The notes beneath the pieces are model-generated. The model saw nothing but the letters and a program-made list of their open reading frames with translations. It ran no database searches and was not told the DNA's origin. The translations under genes were made by a program, and so were the position numbers. A stretch of DNA of 39,034 nt from a virus. The DNA is taken from UHGV virus genome UHGV-0388326. The stretch is one strand, 5' to 3'. Shown here piece after piece: positions 25 to 36,703 of this stretch (positions are counted from its first letter, which is position 1; each line of letters starts with the position of its first letter).

Positions 25-342
25 GTGAAATGCCAGCAGCACCGCAGCAGGAGGTTAACCGTGGCTAACCTGCAACTTGCCGTCAAAGGTGAATACTTCG
101 ATGCCATGATTCGCGGGGAGAAAACGGAAGAGTATCGCCTGTGTAATGACTATTGGAATAAGCGAATTATGTTCCGCGAGTATGACCGCCTGATTATCAC
201 AAAGGGATATCCGAAGCGCGACGATTCCAGCCGCAGAATTGACGTCCCGTATGACGGATATGAAATCAAGACAATCACACATCCGCACTTCGGTGATAAA
301 CCGGTAAAGGTGTTCGCGATAAAGGTAAATATTGATGGCTAA
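25..342 (+). CDS. hypothetical protein, possibly ASCH-like; may be 5'-truncated or continue from window end
   Basis: ORF with GTG at 25 and no in-frame stop in 1-24; motif KGEYFDAMIRGEKTEEYR resembles ASCH-domain signature; stop overlaps next start. Confidence 0.4.
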   Translation: MKCQQHRSRRLTVANLQLAVKGEYFDAMIRGEKTEEYRLCNDYWNKRIMFREYDRLIITKGYPKRDDSSRRIDVPYDGYEIKTITHPHFGDKPVKVFAIKVNIDG

Positions 343-673
343 ATCAGCAGCAGAGCGCAAAGCCGCTCAGAGAGCCAGACAAGCTGCATCTGGTGTGCGT
401 AAGCTGGAAATTGTGCTTGATGCTCAGGAAATTGAAATGCTGGAGCGTAACTGTGCCACGCGTCGCCCCGGGCGTGCGCCTTACGAATTTGGTGAGTATA
501 TAGCGTTACTGATCCGCCAGGATGATGCACGCGTGCGCGGGCGTATAAAATCGATCAGCAGAAAACGTTGCGGTAAGTGCGGCGGGAGAGTTCCAGTTAA
601 TTCATGCCCGTGTAATGGTGACTCGCAATGCTGGGTGACTAAAGGCTGGCATGAAACGAAATTAATAGTGTGA
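335..673 (+). CDS. hypothetical protein with C-terminal Cys cluster (putative zinc finger); positional candidate for late-gene regulator
   Basis: ATG 335 overlaps upstream stop (ATGGCTAA); C-terminus RKRCGKCGG...CPCNGDSQCW; last gene before terminator and terS. Confidence 0.45.
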   Translation: MAKSAAERKAAQRARQAASGVRKLEIVLDAQEIEMLERNCATRRPGRAPYEFGEYIALLIRQDDARVRGRIKSISRKRCGKCGGRVPVNSCPCNGDSQCWVTKGWHETKLIV

Positions 674-681
674 CATGTCAC
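670..681. repeat. 12-bp perfect palindrome GTGACATGTCAC (copy 1 of 3)
   Basis: overlaps stop codon of gene 335-673. Confidence 0.7.
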
Positions 682-722
682 GAGTAGATTATGCATGATG
701 AATTTGATGGGTTTTGAATACT

Positions 723-748
723 GCCGCCAACTATGGCGGCTTTATTTT
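723..748 (+). terminator. Rho-independent terminator-like hairpin upstream of terS
   Basis: GCCGCC-AACTAT-GGCGGC followed by TTTATTTT. Confidence 0.5.
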
Positions 749-759
749 GCATGGTACTA

Positions 760-792
760 TTACCACAACGGTAACTATTACCACGGTGGTTA
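760..792. promoter_or_regulatory. two overlapping TTACC-N5-GGTAA inverted-repeat sites abutting terS start
   Basis: 760-774 TTACCACAACGGTAA; 778-792 TTACCACGGTGGTTA (one mismatch). Confidence 0.5.
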
Positions 793-1388
793 TGATGCCT
801 GCTGAACCTAAAACCTATAAACGCAAATCAACGCAATTTAAGCCACTAACAGCAATGCAGGAGGCTTATTGCCAGTCATACATCAAAACGCCTGAAAACC
901 AGACTCAGGCAGCGATTAACGCAGGATTCTCCCCAAATACAGCGGCAGTTAAAGCCAGTGTCATGATGCGCGATGAACGCATTCAAAAACGGATTGCCGA
1001 GTTGATGGAGGAGCGCAACAAACGAATGCGCGTCAGTGCTGATTACGTTCTCATGCGCCTGGTGGAGATCGACCAGATGGACGTGATCGACATCCTCAAC
1101 GACGATGGGAGCCTTAAACCAATCCGTGAGTGGCCGAAAATCTGGCGCACTACGCTTAGTGGCTTTGATCTGTCATCGACCATCATGAACATGAACGAGG
1201 ATTCGATAGAGACAATCCTCAAAAAAATTAAATGGCCTGACAAGGTGAAGAACCTTGAGCTGATTGGTAAGCATGTTGATGTCAACGCGTTCAAAGAACG
1301 TCTGGATGTTAATGTGAATGTGACAATTGCTGATCGCATAGCAGCAGCCAGGAAGCGACTCAAAGAACGTCAGGATGGTAATCAGTGA
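792..1388 (+). CDS. terS: terminase small subunit
   Basis: Immediately precedes terL with overlapping stop/start; HTH-like region typical of small terminases; start chosen at ATG 792 (ORF track opens at 714). Confidence 0.7.
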   Translation: MMPAEPKTYKRKSTQFKPLTAMQEAYCQSYIKTPENQTQAAINAGFSPNTAAVKASVMMRDERIQKRIAELMEERNKRMRVSADYVLMRLVEIDQMDVIDILNDDGSLKPIREWPKIWRTTLSGFDLSSTIMNMNEDSIETILKKIKWPDKVKNLELIGKHVDVNAFKERLDVNVNVTIADRIAAARKRLKERQDGNQ

Positions 1389-2934: not shown

Positions 2935-2946
2935 GTGACATGTCAC
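2935..2946. repeat. 12-bp perfect palindrome GTGACATGTCAC (copy 2 of 3)
   Basis: immediately after terL terminator hairpin. Confidence 0.7.
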
Positions 2947-2950
2947 GGTG

Positions 2951-3289
2951 TTATTGCTCGCTTAACTTCTGCTTCAGCAAGTAACCTTCGAGCATCCAGA
3001 TTTTGTTTACAGCATTCTGCCGGGCAATCTTCCGACCAATTTCTGCATCAAAGTTTTCCGGGCTTGCACAGGCGCTCTCTCCGGTGACGGTGAAGCCATT
3101 TTGTAGAGTCAATACACAAAATGTCAGCAGAGCCAAACTGTCGTGATAGTCATCGCCAGTTGCAATAGCTCCATCAGCAGCAGTGAAGTACGTTTCCGCA
3201 AGAATAATGCTTTCGATATGGTCTGGCGTAACGCGCGGGGCGGTTTTGCCTTTCTCAACGATTTCTTTTTCGATTTGCTGGTCGTTCAT
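2951..3289 (-). CDS. conserved hypothetical phage protein (112 aa)
   Basis: ORF with GGTGAG RBS upstream of ATG 3289; family not confidently recognised (possibly N4 gp49/Sf6 gp66-like, low certainty). Confidence 0.6.
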   Translation of the reverse strand: MNDQQIEKEIVEKGKTAPRVTPDHIESIILAETYFTAADGAIATGDDYHDSLALLTFCVLTLQNGFTVTGESACASPENFDAEIGRKIARQNAVNKIWMLEGYLLKQKLSEQ

Positions 3290-3487: not shown

Positions 3488-3564
3488 TGGCGTGGCATGC
3501 AGGATTCGAACCTGCGACCAACCGCTTAGAAGGCGGTTGCTCTGTCCAACTGAGCTAATGCCAC
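3488..3564 (-). tRNA. tRNA-Arg, anticodon UCU (reads AGA), CCA encoded
   Basis: Minus-strand 77 nt GTGGCATTAGCTCAGTTGGACAGAGCAACCGCCTTCTAAGCGGTTGGTCGCAGGTTCGAATCCTGCATGCCACGCCA; 7-bp acceptor stem GTGGCAT/ATGCCAC, D-arm GCTC/GAGC, anticodon loop CTTCTAA, T-loop TTCGAAT. Confidence 0.9.
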
Positions 3565-17519: not shown

Positions 17520-19994
17520 ATGAGACAGGAATGTATACAAGCGGTCCAGCAGGCGGCGCAGCGCACGTTAACGGCGCGAGAAATACAGAACATTGAAGAC
17601 CGCATTTATCGAAATATGCGCTCCATTGCTCGTGATGACCCGATGTCGTGGAGACAACTTTCCGAATCAGAGCGGCTATATCGTGCAGCACAATTGGCAT
17701 CTGAAGAATTACAGCGAGAAGCGGCATTAAAGAAACGTCGTGTGGCCCTCACTATAGCCGCACGTCAGAGATTGGATAAATTTATCAATAGCTATCAAGG
17801 GGCTGATGGGAAACTTGGCGCTCTTAACCGTACTATTGCTTTTAATGCAGACGGTAAATCGAATTTCCTCTCTGTTGAGTCCAGAACAAAAGCCACTCGT
17901 GATTATGCATTGAGTCAATTGCAAGAGGCATTTGAAGCAGTTGATCCTCGCTTTTTTGGCCTGTTTGAAGATGAAGCTGGCGTGCGTGACCTGGTATATG
18001 AAATGCGAGGGCAAAATACTGGCAATGCTAAAGCAAGAAAAGGTGCTAAGGCGTGGAGAGAAGTTACAGAGCTGCTGCGCCGCCGGTTTAATGATGCTGG
18101 TGGAGACATTGGCTATCTCGAAAACTGGGGGATCCCTCAACATCATTCTATGGAAAAGGTTGGGGCGGTATCAAAGGATAAGTGGGTTGGCGATGTTATA
18201 GGTAAGCTGGATCGCAAATATTATACCCGAGCCGATGGACAACTGATGAACGATGCCGAGTTGTCTGCATTTCTTGGAGAGGCTTATAACACGATCGCTA
18301 CTGGTGGGCTGAATAAGCTTACTGATACCGGAATGCGAATTTCCGGCGCACGTGCTAACCGTGGTAATGCATCACGACAGATACATTTCAAAGATGCAGA
18401 TTCCTATCTCCAATATCAACAACTTTATGGTGATCGCTCTCTATGGGAAATCATGGTCGGTCACTTGGAAGGTATCAGTAAAGATATTGCTCTGGTGGAA
18501 ACATATGGTCCAAACCCCGATCATGTTTTCCGCTCCCTTCTTGATCAGGTTAAGGCAGAAACGGCAACAGCTAACCCGAGTAAAACCGGTAGCGTCGAGC
18601 GTCTGGCGAACAAAACAGAGAACTTGTACAACTTTATTTCCGGAAAGACACAGCCTGTAGCGAATCCGCACATCGCGCGATGGTCTGACAATATCCGCAA
18701 CTGGCTGGTTGCCAGCAGACTCGGATCCGCGTTGCTGTCATCGTTCTCTGATCTTGGAACCATGTATCTGTCTGCGAAGGTTACCAACCTTCCAATGAAC
18801 CAGTTATTTCGCAACCAGCTTGAAGCTATGGACCCAACGAACCGTACTGAGCTTGCGCGGGCGCGCCGCGCTGGCCTGGCGATGGAATCTCTACTTGGCA
18901 GCGTTAACCGCTGGGCGATGGATAATATGGGGCCGTCTGTGTCTCGTTGGGCGGCAACGGCGGTAATGCGTGCCAGTGGGCTTACAGCATGGTCAGATGC
19001 GCACAAGCGCGCCTATGGCGTAACCATGATGGGAAGCCTGGGAGAAGTAGTGTCACGGACACCAGACCTTCGTAGCCTCGATGACTCTGATTTTCGTATC
19101 CTGAAAAGCAAAGGGATTACTGACACAGACTGGAGCGTATGGAAGCTGGCGCAACAGGAGGACTGGGGGAACGGTAATAATACGATGCTGACACCGGAAA
19201 GCATTATGCGTATCCCTGATTCAGCAGTTAAACATCTTGGTGAGCCTGAACGTGTGAAATTTGAGGCAATGCGTAAACTGCTCGGTGCCGTAACTGAAGA
19301 AGTTGATATGGCTGTTATTACACCGGGCGCACGTGAACAGATGTTCGTAGGGTCTGGTCTTCAGCGTGGAACATGGAAAGGTGAATTAACGAGAAGTGTT
19401 TTCCTGTTTAAATCGTTCCCTATCTCGGTAGTTATGCGTCACTGGCATAGAGCTATGGGGATGCCGTCTGCTGGTGGGCGTGCGGCATATATAGCAACGT
19501 TTTTAGCAAGCACAACCATGCTTGGTGCTCTTTCCATGCAGATTACTGATCTTATTAATGGGAGAAATCCAAAAGAAATGACCGGTGACAACATGGTTAA
19601 ATTCTGGATAAATGCATTTTTAAAAGGTGGTGGGGCAGGGTTGTATGGTGATTTTCTTTTCTCTGACCACACCAGGTACGGGAGCGGCGCACTAGCGTCG
19701 ATGCTTGGCCCGGTAGCTGGTCTGGTTGATGACGTAGTGAAGATTGCTCAGGGCATACCGTTAAATGCTGTGGAAGGGAAGAATGAGCAGACTGGTGGTG
19801 ATTTGGTTAAGCTTGGGAAAGGTTTGATGCCTGGTGCGAATCTCTGGTATTTGAAGGCGGCTCTCGATCACATGATCTTTAACCAGATGCAGGAGTATTT
19901 TTCACCAGGCTATTTGCGTAAAATGGAGCAACGTTCAAAGAAAGAGTTTAACCAGACATACTGGTGGCGACCTCAGGATGTCACTCCGCAATAA
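17520..19994 (+). CDS. internal virion / ejection protein (large)
   Basis: 824 aa, last gene of structural operon before accessory cluster. Confidence 0.5.
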   Translation: MRQECIQAVQQAAQRTLTAREIQNIEDRIYRNMRSIARDDPMSWRQLSESERLYRAAQLASEELQREAALKKRRVALTIAARQRLDKFINSYQGADGKLGALNRTIAFNADGKSNFLSVESRTKATRDYALSQLQEAFEAVDPRFFGLFEDEAGVRDLVYEMRGQNTGNAKARKGAKAWREVTELLRRRFNDAGGDIGYLENWGIPQHHSMEKVGAVSKDKWVGDVIGKLDRKYYTRADGQLMNDAELSAFLGEAYNTIATGGLNKLTDTGMRISGARANRGNASRQIHFKDADSYLQYQQLYGDRSLWEIMVGHLEGISKDIALVETYGPNPDHVFRSLLDQVKAETATANPSKTGSVERLANKTENLYNFISGKTQPVANPHIARWSDNIRNWLVASRLGSALLSSFSDLGTMYLSAKVTNLPMNQLFRNQLEAMDPTNRTELARARRAGLAMESLLGSVNRWAMDNMGPSVSRWAATAVMRASGLTAWSDAHKRAYGVTMMGSLGEVVSRTPDLRSLDDSDFRILKSKGITDTDWSVWKLAQQEDWGNGNNTMLTPESIMRIPDSAVKHLGEPERVKFEAMRKLLGAVTEEVDMAVITPGAREQMFVGSGLQRGTWKGELTRSVFLFKSFPISVVMRHWHRAMGMPSAGGRAAYIATFLASTTMLGALSMQITDLINGRNPKEMTGDNMVKFWINAFLKGGGAGLYGDFLFSDHTRYGSGALASMLGPVAGLVDDVVKIAQGIPLNAVEGKNEQTGGDLVKLGKGLMPGANLWYLKAALDHMIFNQMQEYFSPGYLRKMEQRSKKEFNQTYWWRPQDVTPQ

Positions 19995-29945: not shown

Positions 29946-30592
29946 GCTGCACGCTCCCGCCCCTGGTTGTCTGTTGGTGACAGCGGAGCATTGCTGAATG
30001 CATTTGTTAATCTGGCAATATCCAACGCGTATCCAGGGTGTAGTTGCACTGCCGGGTCTTCGCACTGATTACCCCAAACATCGAAGCCATGAGACGACTG
30101 GCGGGCGAACAGTTCAATGCGAGAAACATCGCCTAACAATTGCACAAGTTTTTCACGAACGACATCTGGTTTTCTTGAATGCTCAAGCCGCGGTGCGGTA
30201 AATGACTGAACGATCCCTGCATTAATGCGCGGAGGTAGTTTTCCCTTTACTGCAAACAGGCAATCTTCACTATTGGCGCGAGTCATGTGACCCATACCCA
30301 TAACCAGTTTATCTGGTTGTCGACTACCACATTTTATCCACGTGAATCCCTTCATGGTCATCAGACGGAATCCCCAGGCTTCAACAACTTTTAGTGCTTC
30401 GAGTGGTTGTGTTGGCACCCACCACATGGCCAACAGACAGTTTTCATCGGCCAAATCCCACACAGGAAGGCGGCAGATATCCATCACACTCATAACCGGA
30501 TATTTAAAACCGGCACCGCGATTACCATCTGCGGCTTTGTCCCGGTATACCCAGGGTGGATCTGCATAGATTAGTGTGTATTTCTTAGTCAT
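29942..30592 (-). CDS. DNA N6-adenine methyltransferase, MT-A70-like
   Basis: 216 aa; N-terminal IYADPPW motif characteristic of MT-A70 family. Confidence 0.7.
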   Translation of the reverse strand: MTKKYTLIYADPPWVYRDKAADGNRGAGFKYPVMSVMDICRLPVWDLADENCLLAMWWVPTQPLEALKVVEAWGFRLMTMKGFTWIKCGSRQPDKLVMGMGHMTRANSEDCLFAVKGKLPPRINAGIVQSFTAPRLEHSRKPDVVREKLVQLLGDVSRIELFARQSSHGFDVWGNQCEDPAVQLHPGYALDIARLTNAFSNAPLSPTDNQGRERAA

Positions 30593-30836
30593 AAACCACC
30601 CCGCAACATCCTATACCGCTATAGTCGCCACGGCGAAGGCCGTTACTTTTTGTGATACATTGGTCCCTGCGAACCGCGATCCTTGCACGCTCAACATCAC
30701 CAGAAGCAACATCCATACACTGAAGCCAAAGGTGAGCGGCAATGCGGAACTGCCCTTTTTTCTCTCTTTCAATCGCGCGTTTTTCGATCTCTATCGCCGC
30801 AGGAGTAACGGCGACAATCTTTGACGGACTGCGCAT
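30585..30836 (-). CDS. small regulator, PerC-like (tentative)
   Basis: pattern KKGQFRIAAHLWLQCM...ERARIAVRRDQC resembles PerC-family proteins as recalled; start uncertain (30836 or 30851). Confidence 0.4.
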   Translation of the reverse strand: MRSPSKIVAVTPAAIEIEKRAIEREKKGQFRIAAHLWLQCMDVASGDVERARIAVRRDQCITKSNGLRRGDYSGIGCCGVVYD

Positions 30837-30993
30837 TGAAACCTTGTTCATGTGATATTTTTCAAGTCGGCTTAACTTTCTCACTTAATCCAACCCTCTC
30901 TGAAAATTAATGCCAGCAGATAAAGCCATGCTGAAACAGAGGCCAGGAATAAGTACCATCCTGACCATTTGCTCCAGTGCCTTAGCAGCACAC

Positions 30994-33051: not shown

Positions 33052-33347
33052 GCCGCGTCCCTCTGTCCATCAAGCTGATCCGCCAGATCCCAGCGGGCGA
33101 TAATTGCCATTGCCTCTCGCCGATAGGCATCCATCAGTTCTTCGAACTCAGGGCTGTCTTTAGCAGCCTCCAGTACTTCCTGACGAACGCCTTTGCCTGT
33201 TACAACGTCAAAAGTTGAGGACAGTTGATGAAGTCGGATGCTCTCAATCAGTTCAACTTGTCGGTCATATAGCTGTTCTGACAGGCGGTAGTCCTTGTCG
33301 AATGCCAGCATGATTTTTTGAAGATTTTTCTGCTGATTAACGTTCAT
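33048..33347 (-). CDS. hypothetical early protein
   Basis: GGGAGGG RBS before ATG 33347. Confidence 0.55.
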   Translation of the reverse strand: MNVNQQKNLQKIMLAFDKDYRLSEQLYDRQVELIESIRLHQLSSTFDVVTGKGVRQEVLEAAKDSPEFEELMDAYRREAMAIIARWDLADQLDGQRDAA

Positions 33348-33521: not shown

Positions 33522-33598
33522 TTACCGTTGAGGTAATAATTATGCGTATCTGGTTTGATGTCAATAGATATGAGTTAAAAAAATTACCCGTTAGGTAA
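33522..33598. promoter_or_regulatory. OL-like region with two TTACC-N5-GGTAA operators
   Basis: 33522-33536 TTACCGTTGAGGTAA; 33584-33598 TTACCCGTTAGGTAA; between repressor terminator and early-left operon. Confidence 0.6.
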
Positions 33599-33655: not shown

Positions 33656-34240
33656 TTATTGTTTGTTTTTTTCGTTCTGGTTGATGACAAATTCAATGTA
33701 ACTTTCGATCTTTGCCTTCTCTGTTTCAGGTAACAATGCGTAGCGCGAGCGGTCATAGTTGATAGTTGCAGGATCATGCGGATGAATCAGTAGTTCATAT
33801 CCGTGACGCCCGAATGCAGATGCAACATTCTCCAGGGTGGAAATGGAAACGCTGACCTCATTGTTTAACAGGCGGCTTATTGTCACCTGGGCGACGCCGG
33901 ATGCGCGGTGAAGTTTTCCCTGAGTTGAAAGGTCGCGGCTTTCACTCATCCAGCGTTCCAGGTTGTGAGCCGCCAGTTGACCAATGTCGCTTGGTCCGAC
34001 AGGCTGAAAACCTTCCTGAGAAAGCGAGCGATCGATATCAAGCCAGTTACGGGGTTTATTGGCGGCAGCTTCAATTTTTCGCGCAACCTGGTCGCCGATA
34101 ACCTTCTTGCCAAGAGCCCAGCGGTTTACCAGATTTGCCTGAGTTCCAAGTTTTTCAGCCATCCGCGTCTGAACACCATTGAATTCACGGTCGATCAAGT
34201 CGTTGAGATTTTGCCTGCGGACGTCCTGGATACTTTTCAT
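33656..34240 (-). CDS. prophage repressor candidate, tandem HTH (XRE-like) domains, no peptidase S24 domain evident
   Basis: 194 aa; HTH-like segments MAEKLGTQANLVNRWALGKK and ASGVAQVTISRLLNNEVSVSISTLENVASAFG; located between operator arrays in lambda cI position. Confidence 0.6.
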   Translation of the reverse strand: MKSIQDVRRQNLNDLIDREFNGVQTRMAEKLGTQANLVNRWALGKKVIGDQVARKIEAAANKPRNWLDIDRSLSQEGFQPVGPSDIGQLAAHNLERWMSESRDLSTQGKLHRASGVAQVTISRLLNNEVSVSISTLENVASAFGRHGYELLIHPHDPATINYDRSRYALLPETEKAKIESYIEFVINQNEKNKQ

Positions 34241-34625: not shown

Positions 34626-34647
34626 TATCCAGCCACAACCCTCTGTA

Positions 34648-34672
34648 GACCGCCATCCGGCGGTCTTTTCAT
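34648..34672 (+). terminator. tR1-like terminator after cro-like gene
   Basis: GACCGCC-ATCC-GGCGGTC followed by TTTTC. Confidence 0.6.
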
Positions 34673-34680
34673 ATCTATTC

Positions 34681-34695
34681 GTACCTCAAAGGTAA
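34681..34695. promoter_or_regulatory. TTACC-N5-GGTAA-like site
   Basis: GTACCTCAAAGGTAA (one mismatch). Confidence 0.4.
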
Positions 34696-36589: not shown

Positions 36590-36626
36590 TACCAGCGCGA
36601 TAGCGCATTTTTTTACGTCTCGATGA

Positions 36627-36703
36627 TTACCTGCTGGGTAATAAAATATTCTAAAATCTATTGATTTCGTGTCTTATGTGGTTTTTAATTACCTAAGAGG
36701 TAA
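36627..36703. promoter_or_regulatory. two TTACC-N5-GGTAA sites upstream of DUF1064 gene
   Basis: 36627-36641 TTACCTGCTGGGTAA; 36689-36703 TTACCTAAGAGGTAA overlapping the RBS, ATG at 36707. Confidence 0.5.

What the first reader, a model, noticed from the sequence alone, without database searches (positions are those of the whole stretch)
335..794. Late-control junction: Cys-rich protein, terminator and operator sites immediately upstream of terS
The 112-aa gene 335-673 ends in a Cys cluster (CGKCGG...CPCNGDSQCW) and is the last gene before the packaging/virion operon. It is followed by the palindrome, a terminator-like hairpin (723-748) and two TTACC-N5-GGTAA sites abutting the terS start. 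This resembles the lambda Q / PR' / tR' arrangement, in which late transcription needs antitermination or activation. The small protein is a positional candidate for that regulator, though much smaller than lambda Q.
Basis: inference. Interest (0 to 1): 0.5.

Follow-up and report, generated by a model that had tools for sequence, protein, structure and literature searches.

The report
Early-operon end before phage packaging genes
This is the boundary between the early genes and the DNA-packaging genes of an epsilon15/phiV10-type temperate phage: a terminator followed by prophage-repressor binding sites, an arrangement already annotated in epsilon15. The small Cys-rich protein is a ribbon-helix-helix DNA binder that travels with its own 12-bp palindrome and is not a lambda-Q-like antiterminator.

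Summary
One correction: the second TTACC-N5-GGTAA site has a mismatch (GGTTA).

The window is a near-complete phiV10/epsilon15-like (Uetakevirus) genome. The epsilon15 RefSeq record annotates the same junction: gp49 "transcriptional regulator", a rho-independent terminator, and a "repressor" site before terS.

The TTACC-N5-GGTAA sites are two of 15 such sites scattered through the window (0.67 expected by chance). They cluster around the SPC32H-type repressor gene, so they are immunity operators. The first one abuts a conserved extended -10 element (TGnTAnTAT, 57 of 58 junction variants). This suggests that terS has its own repressor-controlled promoter downstream of the terminator, so antitermination need not be invoked.

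The 112-aa protein has no Q or Ogr similarity. It is a ribbon-helix-helix fold with four conserved Cys. The family also occurs in N15 and ZF40, which have their own Q-like genes, in P2-like Yersinia phages and in lambdoid phages, none of them next to terS.

The unexpected result is that GTGAC-NN-GTCAC follows the gene in 143 of 158 distinct contexts. Three exact copies sit in this genome, each just upstream of an intrinsic terminator. This is probably the protein's binding site. Its role is unknown.

The parts
335..673 (+). gp49-family gene, 112 aa: basic N-terminal helix, ribbon-helix-helix core, C-terminal Cys4 module. Last gene of the early-right operon.
670..681 (.). 12-bp palindrome GTGACATGTCAC with the TGA stop inside its left arm. 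Probable binding site of the gp49-family protein (copy 1 of 3).
   Evidence: GTGAC-NN-GTCAC follows the gene in 143 of 158 unique contexts across five phage groups.
682..722 (+). Variable spacer. In Klebsiella and Enterobacter relatives this position holds a LexA-box promoter plus a 109-aa gene. Here it may be a decayed remnant.
   Evidence: The promoter-like match GTGACA-18-CATGAT at 670-699 is at chance level: 4 found in the region, 4.0 expected.
723..748 (+). Intrinsic terminator T1 that ends the early-right operon.
   Evidence: Annotated as a rho-independent terminator at the same place in epsilon15. Identical or near-identical hairpin in E. coli and Salmonella relatives and in Klebsiella phage ST512-KPC3phi13.3; absent where the LexA-box gene is inserted.
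752..760 (+). Predicted extended -10 promoter element TGgTACTAT (here called P_terS). Its last T is the first base of O1. Inferred transcription start about 766-768.
   Evidence: TGnTAnnAT abuts O1 in 57 of 58 junction variants (six sequence versions). Variation falls only at n and at hexamer position 3. The single exception has AATAAT in the same place. None of the other 14 operators in the window has this element.
760..774 (.). O1, a perfect Rep operator (TTACC-N5-GGTAA).
   Evidence: The equivalent epsilon15 site at 12-27 is annotated protein_bind 'repressor'. Conserved in all Uetakevirus junctions examined.
778..792 (.). O2, an imperfect Rep operator (TTACC-N5-GGTTA) that covers the terS ribosome-binding site GGTGG (785-789).
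   Evidence: epsilon15 has TTACT-N5-GGTAA at the same place. The site is degenerate in Klebsiella relatives.
795..1388 (+). terS (small terminase), followed by terL at 1385-2860.
   Evidence: Terminase_2 at 1e-29. phrog_51 and phrog_2.
2935..2946 (.). Palindrome copy 2. It lies between the stop of the minus-strand gene 2951-3289 and the terminator hairpin 2911-2930 downstream of terL.
   Evidence: Same arrangement in epsilon15 (position 2142) and in Klebsiella phage Kp4865-1 (position 15252).
20421..20432 (.). Palindrome copy 3. It starts 3 nt after the last virion-operon ORF (20004-20417) and ends 2 nt before the GC-rich core of the terminator stem at 20433-20450.
   Evidence: The epsilon15 equivalent at 19517 overlaps the gp18 stop and precedes the annotated terminator 19531-19556.
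33656..34240 (-). Rep, the prophage repressor inferred to bind O1 and O2 and the 13 other TTACC-N5-GGTAA sites.
   Evidence: PDB 5D50 (SPC32H Repressor) at E = 1.9e-41. HTH_3 domain. Operators flank the gene at 33522, 33584, 34296 and 34344. PL- and PR-like promoters overlap them.

Best explanation
The region is the 3' boundary of the early-right operon of a Uetakevirus, joined to a repressor-controlled start of the packaging operon. It has three layers.

(1) Terminator. T1 (723-748) stops transcripts that come from the cro/replication side.

(2) Promoter and operators. Just downstream lies a weak sigma-70 promoter of the extended -10 type (TGgTACTAT, 752-760). Two operators for the SPC32H/epsilon15-type repressor overlap it. 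O1 covers roughly -7 to +8, and O2 covers the leader and the terS ribosome-binding site. In a lysogen Rep therefore shuts off terS-terL directly. It would do the same at its other operators in front of the portal, tailspike, lysis, integrase and early units. Rep inactivation, by the LexA-controlled antirepressor known from this phage group, would free all of them. No dedicated antiterminator is required.

(3) The small protein. The 112-aa product is a ribbon-helix-helix protein with a Cys4 (probably zinc) module. It most likely binds, as a dimer or a dimer of dimers, the inverted 7-bp units TGTGACA/TGTCACA that overlap its own stop codon. Gene and site move together as a cassette between unrelated phages. 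In this genome the two extra copies also lie directly upstream of terminators at operon ends. The most likely role is that the bound protein marks or reinforces transcription-unit boundaries, for example as a roadblock backed by a terminator.

Shown: the sequence features, their conservation, the gene-site linkage, the fold and the repressor homology. Inferred: Rep binding, promoter activity, protein-palindrome binding and the boundary role.
For: Genome identity and existing annotation.

Operators:
- 15 sites against 0.67 expected.
- The same motif is curated as 'repressor' sites in epsilon15. There are 15 sites each in epsilon15 and in Klebsiella phage Kp4865-1, and none in the lambdoid phage Omnitron.
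- The Rep homologue matches PDB 5D50 at 1.9e-41.
- PL (TTGACA-17-AATTAT) and PR (TTGTTA-17-TATTAT) overlap operators. At PL the -10 hexamer abuts the operator exactly as at terS.

Promoter: TGnTAnnAT is conserved in 57 of 58 junction variants, with changes only at the non-critical positions.

Terminator.

Protein:
- RHH fold.
- YbfE-like weak hits.
- No Q or Ogr match.

Gene-site linkage:
- 143 of 158 contexts. In 132 of them the stop codon lies inside the palindrome.
- Copies within one genome share the centre dinucleotide in 81 of 94 comparisons.
- The second site of N15-type phages, inside repA, is intact in all 44 homology-recovered segments (from 43 loci) even though nearby wobble positions vary.

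Palindrome next to terminators: all 3 copies here and all 3 in epsilon15, plus Kp4865-1 and Omnitron.
Against: - No binding, transcript-mapping or reporter data exist for any step.
- The extended -10 hexamer is only 4 of 6 (TACTAT) and has no -35. Its last three bases (TAT) may partly reflect a flank preference of the operator (TATTACC).
- A promoter controlled only by Rep would fire early after infection, which leaves late timing unexplained.
- No Q-like gene was found among the early genes tested. The only other activator candidate is a PerC-like protein at 30585-30884. The gp49 protein therefore remains one of few candidates for any late control.
- In ZF40 and N15 the extra palindromes lie inside coding regions and not at terminators, so the boundary role does not generalise.
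Confidence: 0.6

Rival explanations
1. The 112-aa protein is a Q-like late regulator. It binds the palindrome next to a promoter upstream of T1 (or loads onto RNA polymerase there) and lets transcription pass T1 into terS. It may also act at the two other palindrome-terminator pairs. That would join all plus-strand late genes into long transcripts.
For: - The order gene, DNA site, terminator, late genes resembles lambda Q, QBE/PR', tR'.
- All three palindromes lie just upstream of terminators, at points where read-through on the plus strand would link terS-terL, the virion operon and the tailspike gene.
- No Q homologue was found among the early genes tested.
- A promoter-like match GTGACA-18-CATGAT overlaps the palindrome.
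Against: - No similarity to any Q or Ogr family. The fold is RHH.
- The family sits away from late genes in phages that have their own Q-like gene, N15 and ZF40, and in P2-like and lambdoid phages.
- The promoter-like match is at chance level (4 found, 4.0 expected) and is not conserved in position in epsilon15.
- Palindromes 2 and 3 lie 2-4 nt from the hairpins, which leaves no room for a promoter.
- T1 is missing in Enterobacter and Klebsiella relatives that still carry the gene, the palindrome and O1.
- The distance from palindrome to terminator varies: 41, 4 and 2 nt.
Confidence: 0.12
2. The protein is an ordinary repressor or activator of whatever promoter lies just downstream of its gene. 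In Klebsiella and Enterobacter relatives that is the LexA-box promoter, which starts 8 nt after the palindrome. In this genome that promoter has decayed and the site is a leftover. The other copies regulate unrelated promoters.
For: - In L004, L012, L014 and L015 the palindrome is followed 8 nt later by TTGACT, a 17-nt spacer and a LexA box.
- P2-like Yersinia phages also have a LexA box downstream of the gene.
- RHH proteins are typically repressors.
- The family shows weak similarity to the LexA-regulated YbfE.
Against: - In N15 and Chlobot the palindrome is followed directly by the next gene's ribosome-binding site, with no promoter.
- Copies 2 and 3 lie between convergent genes, next to hairpins.
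- The N15 and ZF40 extra copies are inside coding regions.
- The site is perfectly conserved here even though the LexA promoter is absent.
Confidence: 0.15
3. The palindrome and protein act on DNA and not on transcription. Possible roles are control of replication, site pairing or looping, or segregation, comparable to RHH centromere-binding or copy-control proteins.
For: - A binding site immediately downstream of the gene is typical of centromere-binding proteins (general knowledge).
- In N15-type plasmid-prophages the second site lies inside the replication gene repA and is invariant.
- One record names a homologue 'RepB-like replication regulatory protein'.
Against: - Integrating phages such as epsilon15 and phiV10 need no partition system.
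- No ParA-like partner lies next to the gene.
- Only 2-3 sites occur per genome.
- The association with terminators in Uetakeviruses would be left unexplained.
Confidence: 0.13

Closest known systems
The same junction in Salmonella phage epsilon15 (RefSeq NC_004775.2): gp49 'transcriptional regulator', rho-independent terminator 39646-39672, 'repressor' site 12-27, then terS
   Same: - Same gene (79% aa identity).
- Same palindrome over the stop codon.
- Same hairpin.
- Same pair of operators and same terS start.
- Same three palindrome positions in the genome.
   Different: - The spacer between palindrome and terminator is 22 nt in epsilon15 and 41 nt here.
- The mismatch in O2 is in the other half-site.
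- The record does not annotate the palindrome, the second operator or any promoter.
Lambda Q / PR' / tR' late antitermination module
   Same: - A small regulator gene is the last gene before the late genes.
- A DNA site right after the gene is followed by an intrinsic terminator.
   Different: - No sequence or fold relationship to Q.
- No supported promoter or sigma-dependent pause element.
- The site also occurs at operon 3' ends and inside genes.
- The family coexists with true Q-like genes in N15 and ZF40.
- A promoter candidate lies downstream of the terminator.
Salmonella phage SPC32H Rep/Ant switch (PDB 5D50), and phage repressors with many dispersed operators (P1 C1, mycobacteriophage L5 gp71; recalled from the literature)
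   Same: - Rep homologue at E = 1.9e-41.
- Palindromic operators, often in pairs, which suits a tetramer (PMC9638917, read).
- A LexA box lies in front of the probable antirepressor gene.
- Operators stand in front of almost every transcription unit.
   Different: - Rep binding to the terS sites has not been shown here.
- L5 stoperators are asymmetric and orientation-dependent, whereas these sites are symmetric.
[not shown]
   Same: - RHH fold.
- The palindrome reads as two inverted 7-bp units, TGTGACA and TGTCACA, whose core GTCAC resembles ATCAC.
   Different: - Omega has no Cys4 module.
- Omega sites are arrays in promoters, not single pairs at gene 3' ends.
- No sequence homology was detected.
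E. coli YbfE, 'LexA regulated protein' (NCBIfam NF008671), a predicted CopG-type protein
   Same: Weak similarity over the basic helix, strand and first helix. Four of six diverse family members match, best E = 0.004.
   Different: - The scores are far below the family cut-off (14 bits against 62).
- YbfE lacks the Cys4 tail.
- The function of YbfE is itself unknown.

Membership tests
Lambda-type Q antiterminators | Sequence or fold homology to a Q family (Pfam Q-type families; solved Q structures) | tested here: not met
   [not shown]
Lambda-type Q antiterminators | The binding element is embedded in a late promoter with a promoter-proximal pause, upstream of a terminator | tested here: not met
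   The only promoter-like match (670-699) is at chance level. It is not conserved in register in epsilon15. Palindromes 2 and 3 abut hairpins and leave no room for a promoter.
Lambda-type Q antiterminators | The gene is consistently placed directly upstream of the late operon it controls | tested here: not met
   This holds only in Uetakeviruses. Elsewhere the gene lies before xis/int, ninB or a LexA-box gene, or in mid-operon. N15 and ZF40 carry separate Q-like genes.
Lambda-type Q antiterminators | Terminator read-through depends on the protein | not testable with these tools
   Needs reporter assays or Term-seq.
P2 Ogr/Delta zinc-finger late activators | Homology to the Ogr/Delta zinc-finger family | tested here: not met
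   No Pfam match. The family occurs as an extra gene in P2-like Yersinia phages.
Ribbon-helix-helix (CopG/Arc/MetJ) DNA-binding proteins | Strand-helix-helix core fold | tested here: met
   [not shown]
Ribbon-helix-helix (CopG/Arc/MetJ) DNA-binding proteins | Binds short repeated or palindromic DNA subsites as a dimer or higher oligomer | tested here: inconclusive
   A 12-bp palindrome co-travels with the gene in 143 of 158 contexts, and the centre dinucleotide agrees among copies in one genome.
epsilon15/SPC32H Rep operator set | Sequence matches the operator motif curated in epsilon15 (ATTACC-N5-GGTAAT) | tested here: met
   O1 is perfect and O2 has one mismatch. All seven curated epsilon15 'repressor' features carry the motif.
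epsilon15/SPC32H Rep operator set | The cognate repressor gene is present and is flanked by clustered operators | tested here: met
   Rep at 33656-34240 matches 5D50 at 1.9e-41. Operators lie at 33522, 33584, 34296 and 34344 and overlap PL- and PR-like promoters.
epsilon15/SPC32H Rep operator set | Rep protein binds the site | not testable with these tools
   Needs EMSA, footprinting or ChIP.
Intrinsic (rho-independent) terminators | GC-rich hairpin followed by a U tract, at the end of a transcription unit | tested here: met
   Seven-pair stem with 6 GC pairs, tail TTTATTTT. Free energy -15.8 kcal/mol, z = -4.4. It lies 50 nt after the last early gene. It is conserved in E. coli and Salmonella relatives but dispensable in others. 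No covariation is available because the stem hardly varies.
Extended -10 sigma-70 promoters | TGn immediately upstream of a TAnnnT hexamer | tested here: met
   TGgTACTAT at 752-760. TG, T1, A2, A5 and T6 are invariant in six sequence versions (57 of 58 variants). Promoter activity is not testable here.

The most novel reading that the evidence does not exclude
The gp49-family gene and its stop-codon-embedded palindrome GTGAC-NN-GTCAC form a mobile 'regulator plus site' cassette that has not been described. The RHH/Cys4 protein binds 2-3 identical sites placed inside transcription units. In Uetakeviruses these lie directly upstream of the terminators that close the early, packaging and virion operons. 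The protein would control whether RNA polymerase stops or passes there. That would be a protein-programmed operon-boundary system: a roadblock-assisted terminator or, less likely, a site-specific antiterminator that works through DNA and not RNA.
Probability: 0.25. Interest if true: 0.65.

Novelty: new member of a known kind. Interest (0 to 1): 0.4.

Why it matters
The junction itself is ordinary and already annotated in epsilon15. It fits a model in which this phage group controls its packaging genes by direct repressor binding at a small promoter placed behind a terminator, not by a lambda-style antitermination cascade.

Two points go beyond that.

(1) One repressor appears to gate nearly every transcription unit, through 15 operators. 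This bears on how phiV10-type phages, which are used as E. coli O157 reporter phages, and epsilon15-type phages switch on late genes.

(2) A widespread enterobacterial phage protein with no assigned function now has a specific, testable DNA target. The family covers Uetakeviruses, N15-like, P2-like and lambdoid phages, with hundreds of protein clusters. In this genome the target has a striking placement beside terminators. A gel-shift assay and a terminator reporter would settle whether this is a new way of setting operon boundaries.

Tried and rejected
- Literature. The epsilon15 genome paper and the two SPC32H Rep/Ant papers are not in the held library, so published operator sequences could not be quoted. 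I used the epsilon15 RefSeq annotation instead. The ZX5 paper has nothing on operators or late control. No held paper contains GTGACATGTCAC, and a keyword search for similar modules found nothing relevant.
- First structure model. The 29-sequence alignment gave pLDDT 65.6, and its Foldseek matches were meaningless. It was replaced by a model from a 50-sequence alignment.
- A sigma-70 promoter with both hexamers between T1 and terS. The scan found none, and manual -35 candidates (TTGCAT) have 19-20 nt spacers. Rejected in favour of the extended -10 reading.
- The promoter GTGACA-18-CATGAT over the palindrome. It is at chance level and is not conserved.
- The inserted 'UmuD-like' gene of relatives as the SPC32H antirepressor. 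It has no PDB match to 5D50. The probable ant gene of this genome lies behind the LexA box at 22798-22817.
- The spacer 682-722 as a relic of the LexA-box promoter. The alignment is suggestive only.
- Covariation in T1. The stem is nearly invariant, so the test has no power.
- Defence-system models (PADLOC). No match.
- Contig ends 246 nt after the gene in Pantoea-type contigs. These are prophage boundaries after an excisionase gene, not genome termini.
- The first N15 repA conservation test was circular, because sequences had been selected by the motif. It was redone by homology.
Full report
WHAT THE WINDOW IS. The first 1.4 kb and the last 14 kb match phiV10, TL-2011b, the O157 typing phages 9 and 10, ZX5 and related Escherichia phages at 93-99% identity. 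Similar prophages occur in over two thousand complete E. coli genomes. The window is therefore an almost complete, permuted genome of a phiV10/epsilon15-type temperate podovirus (genus Uetakevirus). Rightward early genes run off the right end and continue at position 1. They end with the 112-aa gene and are followed by terS, terL and the virion genes.

CHECK OF THE OBSERVATION. All the listed features are present.
- The ORF runs from ATG 335 to TGA 671-673.
- The palindrome GTGACATGTCAC lies at 670-681 and contains the stop codon.
- The hairpin 723-740 with the tail TTTATTTT is found by the terminator scan. It folds at -15.8 kcal/mol, with z = -4.4.
- TTACCACAACGGTAA (760-774) is a perfect TTACC-N5-GGTAA site.
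- The second site (778-792) reads TTACCACGGTGGTTA, so it has one mismatch. It covers the GGTGG ribosome-binding site and the first of two in-frame ATGs.
- Comparison with epsilon15 suggests that terS starts at ATG 795.

THE JUNCTION IS ALREADY ANNOTATED IN A RELATIVE. The epsilon15 RefSeq record lists, in the same order: gp49 'transcriptional regulator, similar to N15 gp46', a rho-independent terminator (39646-39672), a protein-binding site labelled 'repressor' (12-27), and terS. The two sequences are collinear through the palindrome, the hairpin and both operator-like sites.

THE TTACC-N5-GGTAA SITES ARE PROPHAGE-REPRESSOR OPERATORS.
- With at most one mismatch the motif occurs 15 times in the window against 0.67 expected. 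None of 100 shuffles reaches 15.
- Nearly all of the sites lie between genes. Two are downstream of the repressor gene, where a TTGACA-17-AATTAT leftward promoter abuts one of them. Two lie between the repressor and cro, where TTGTTA-17-TATTAT spans one. The others precede the replication genes, the nin-like genes, the portal operon, the tailspike, the lysis cassette and the integrase.
- All seven sites curated as 'repressor' in epsilon15 are ATTACC-N5-GGTAAT. epsilon15 and the Klebsiella Uetakevirus Kp4865-1 each carry 15 such sites, whereas the lambdoid phage Omnitron has none.
- The window's repressor (33656-34240, minus strand) matches the solved SPC32H repressor at E = 1.9e-41. That protein binds palindromic sites as a tetramer (PMC9638917, read).

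Binding of Rep at 760-792 is therefore a well-grounded inference, though it has not been shown.

A PROMOTER CANDIDATE DOWNSTREAM OF THE TERMINATOR. The nine bases before and including the first T of O1 read TGgTACTAT, an extended -10 element.
- Among 58 distinct junctions from related phages and prophages, 57 keep TG-n-TA-n-n-AT in that exact register.
- The six sequence versions differ only at n and at hexamer position 3.
- The one exception has AATAAT in the same place.
- No other operator in the window has this element.
- The geometry, with the last base of the -10 hexamer being the first base of the operator, is the same as at the leftward early promoter.

I infer a weak promoter that starts near 766-768 and is occluded by Rep at O1 and O2.

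Caveats: the hexamer is only 4 of 6, there is no -35, and the TAT may partly reflect the flank preference of the operator.

As a by-product of the tandem symmetric sites, the leader can fold into a hairpin that buries the ribosome-binding site (-16.9 kcal/mol, z = -3.1). I attach no function to this.

THE TERMINATOR IS REAL BUT NOT UNIVERSAL. The hairpin is identical or nearly identical in E. coli and Salmonella relatives and in one Klebsiella phage. It is absent in Enterobacter and Klebsiella relatives. Those carry, between the palindrome and O1, a LexA-box promoter (TTGACT, 17 nt, then TACTGTTTAAATATACAGTA) and a 109-aa gene. In those phages transcription from the inserted promoter meets only the operator before terS. 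Passage of T1 is therefore not a conserved requirement of this junction.

THE 112-AA PROTEIN.
- It belongs to phrog_536 (4.6e-54) and has no Pfam family.
- A profile search of all PDB sequences finds nothing.
- Four of six diverse members weakly match the NCBIfam model for YbfE, the 'LexA regulated protein' (best E = 0.004).
- With a 50-sequence alignment AlphaFold2 gives pLDDT 89.3.
- Cys79, 82, 91 and 99 are conserved (CX2C-X8-C-X7-C).
- There is no match to Q-type or Ogr-type families.

WHERE THE GENE FAMILY LIVES. It lies next to terS only in Uetakeviruses. Elsewhere it is found:
- before ninB, three genes upstream of a Q-like gene, in Pectobacterium phage ZF40;
- after replication gene A in P2-like Yersinia phages;
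- six genes downstream of the Q-like gene 40 in N15;
- before xis and int in Pantoea phage AH07 and its relatives;
- in the leftward early operon of the lambdoid phage Chlobot.

The gene is thus a portable delayed-early accessory gene. In at least two phages it coexists with a genuine Q-like antiterminator.

THE PALINDROME BELONGS TO THE GENE.
- I collected about 280 loci from five subfamilies and located each gene's stop codon.
- Of 158 distinct downstream contexts, 143 have an exact GTGAC-NN-GTCAC within a few bases of the stop. In 132 of those the TGA lies inside the left arm. Most exceptions are truncated genes or one-mismatch variants.
- This holds down to 32% protein identity.
- The centre dinucleotide differs between subfamilies: AT, CT, GC, TG.
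- Extra copies in the same genome mostly share the centre, in 81 of 94 comparisons.
- N15 has a second GTGACTGGTCAC inside repA. All 44 homologous repA segments, recovered from 43 N15-like loci, keep it intact while nearby wobble positions vary.
- ZF40 has three identical copies.

The simplest reading is that the palindrome is the binding site of the protein. It can be read as two inverted 7-bp units, TGTGACA and TGTCACA. From memory, this is how the RHH repressor omega reads its ATCAC heptads.

THREE COPIES HERE, EACH BESIDE A TERMINATOR. Exact copies lie at 670-681, 2935-2946 and 20421-20432.
- Copy 2 lies 4 nt after the stop of the minus-strand gene 2951-3289 and 4 nt before the hairpin 2930-2911.
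- Copy 3 starts 3 nt after the last virion-operon ORF and ends 2 nt before the GC-rich core of the stem at 20433-20450.
- epsilon15 has copies at the three equivalent places. Kp4865-1 keeps the one after terL. Omnitron has gene, palindrome, 22 nt, then terminator.
- The three scans predict 57 terminator-like sites in 39 kb. By my own estimate, the chance that three random positions all fall within 45 nt upstream of one is about 3 in 10,000. It is far lower if only the strong sites are counted.

In ZF40 and N15, however, the extra copies lie inside genes and not at terminators.

MECHANISM.
- Most likely (0.6): T1 ends the early-right operon. terS-terL are transcribed from their own small promoter, which Rep shuts off through O1 and O2 as part of genome-wide repression. 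The RHH/Cys4 protein binds the palindromes.
- The role of that binding is open. I favour a boundary or roadblock function at operon ends.
- Other possibilities are local promoter control, suggested by the LexA-box promoter that starts 8 nt after the site in relatives, or a DNA-level role, suggested by the repA site in N15.
- Q-like antitermination is unlikely (about 0.12), though it cannot be excluded. No Q homologue was found among the early genes tested, and the only other activator candidate is a PerC-like protein at 30585-30884.

NOVELTY AND VERDICT. The junction, its terminator and its repressor site are known from the epsilon15 annotation, so the finding as stated is largely ordinary. 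Two things appear not to be described in the literature I could search. One is the gene-palindrome linkage across five phage groups. The other is the pairing of palindrome and terminator in Uetakeviruses. Overall interest is 0.4.

Noticed in passing
window 760, 778, 3887, 21415, 22475, 22855, 26263, 28440, 33522, 33584, 34296, 34344, 34681, 36627, 36689: Fifteen TTACC-N5-GGTAA sites (up to one mismatch) lie in front of almost every transcription unit. One repressor appears to gate early, late, lysis and integration genes directly. Pairs are spaced 18, 48 and 62 bp apart, which would suit a tetrameric repressor.
   Followed up: partly
window 34647-34695 and about 36600-36703: Two further junctions of the type 'terminator followed by Rep operator(s)' lie inside the rightward early region, after cro and after the replication genes. 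They mirror the design before terS. At 36689 the operator contains the ribosome-binding site of the next gene, as O2 does at terS.
   Followed up: partly
window 22798-22817: A near-consensus LexA box (AACTGTATATTTATACAGTA) lies upstream of a small minus-strand ORF that ends at 22521. This is probably the SOS-controlled antirepressor known from SPC32H-type phages. A Rep operator lies at 22855.
   Followed up: partly
window 3488-3564 (minus strand): A tRNA-Arg (anticodon TCT) gene lies in the minus-strand island between terL and the portal operon.
   Followed up: no
window 2951-3289 (minus strand): A 112-aa gene convergent with terL shows weak sequence similarity to the solved anti-CBASS protein Acb4 (PDB 9e4w, E = 0.0012, residues 56-97). 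It belongs to phrog_322, of unknown function.
   Followed up: no
window 30585-30884 (minus strand): A PerC-family transcriptional activator homologue (Pfam 2.5e-07; phrog_868) lies in the leftward early operon. It is the only other candidate for a positive regulator in this genome.
   Followed up: no
L012 1783-2189, L014 and L015 at the equivalent place, L004 2672-2995: In Enterobacter and Klebsiella Uetakeviruses a LexA-box promoter plus a small gene is inserted between the palindrome and the terS operator. The gene is 109 aa and 'UmuD-like' in three of the phages, and a different 85-aa gene in the fourth. The three with the UmuD-like gene lack the T1 hairpin, so an SOS-induced transcript would run straight at terS.
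   Followed up: partly
L281 / N15 record position 33237: N15 carries a second copy of its palindrome variant (GTGACTGGTCAC) inside the 5' part of the replication gene repA. It is intact in all 44 homologous segments from 43 N15-like loci. ZF40 has extra copies inside gp08 and near the end of its cII-like gene.
   Followed up: partly
window 750-800: Because O1 and O2 are tandem symmetric sites, the predicted terS leader folds into a nested hairpin that pairs ACCAC with the GGUGG ribosome-binding site (-16.9 kcal/mol, z = -3.1). It may be a by-product of the operators, or it may damp terS translation.
   Followed up: no
window 61-342: The gene upstream of the 112-aa gene is a 93-aa ASCH-like protein (phrog_625). 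It overlaps the 112-aa start by 8 nt. In Stx-converting phages it lies next to Ea-type accessory genes, so the end of the early operon is a mosaic of portable accessory genes.
   Followed up: no
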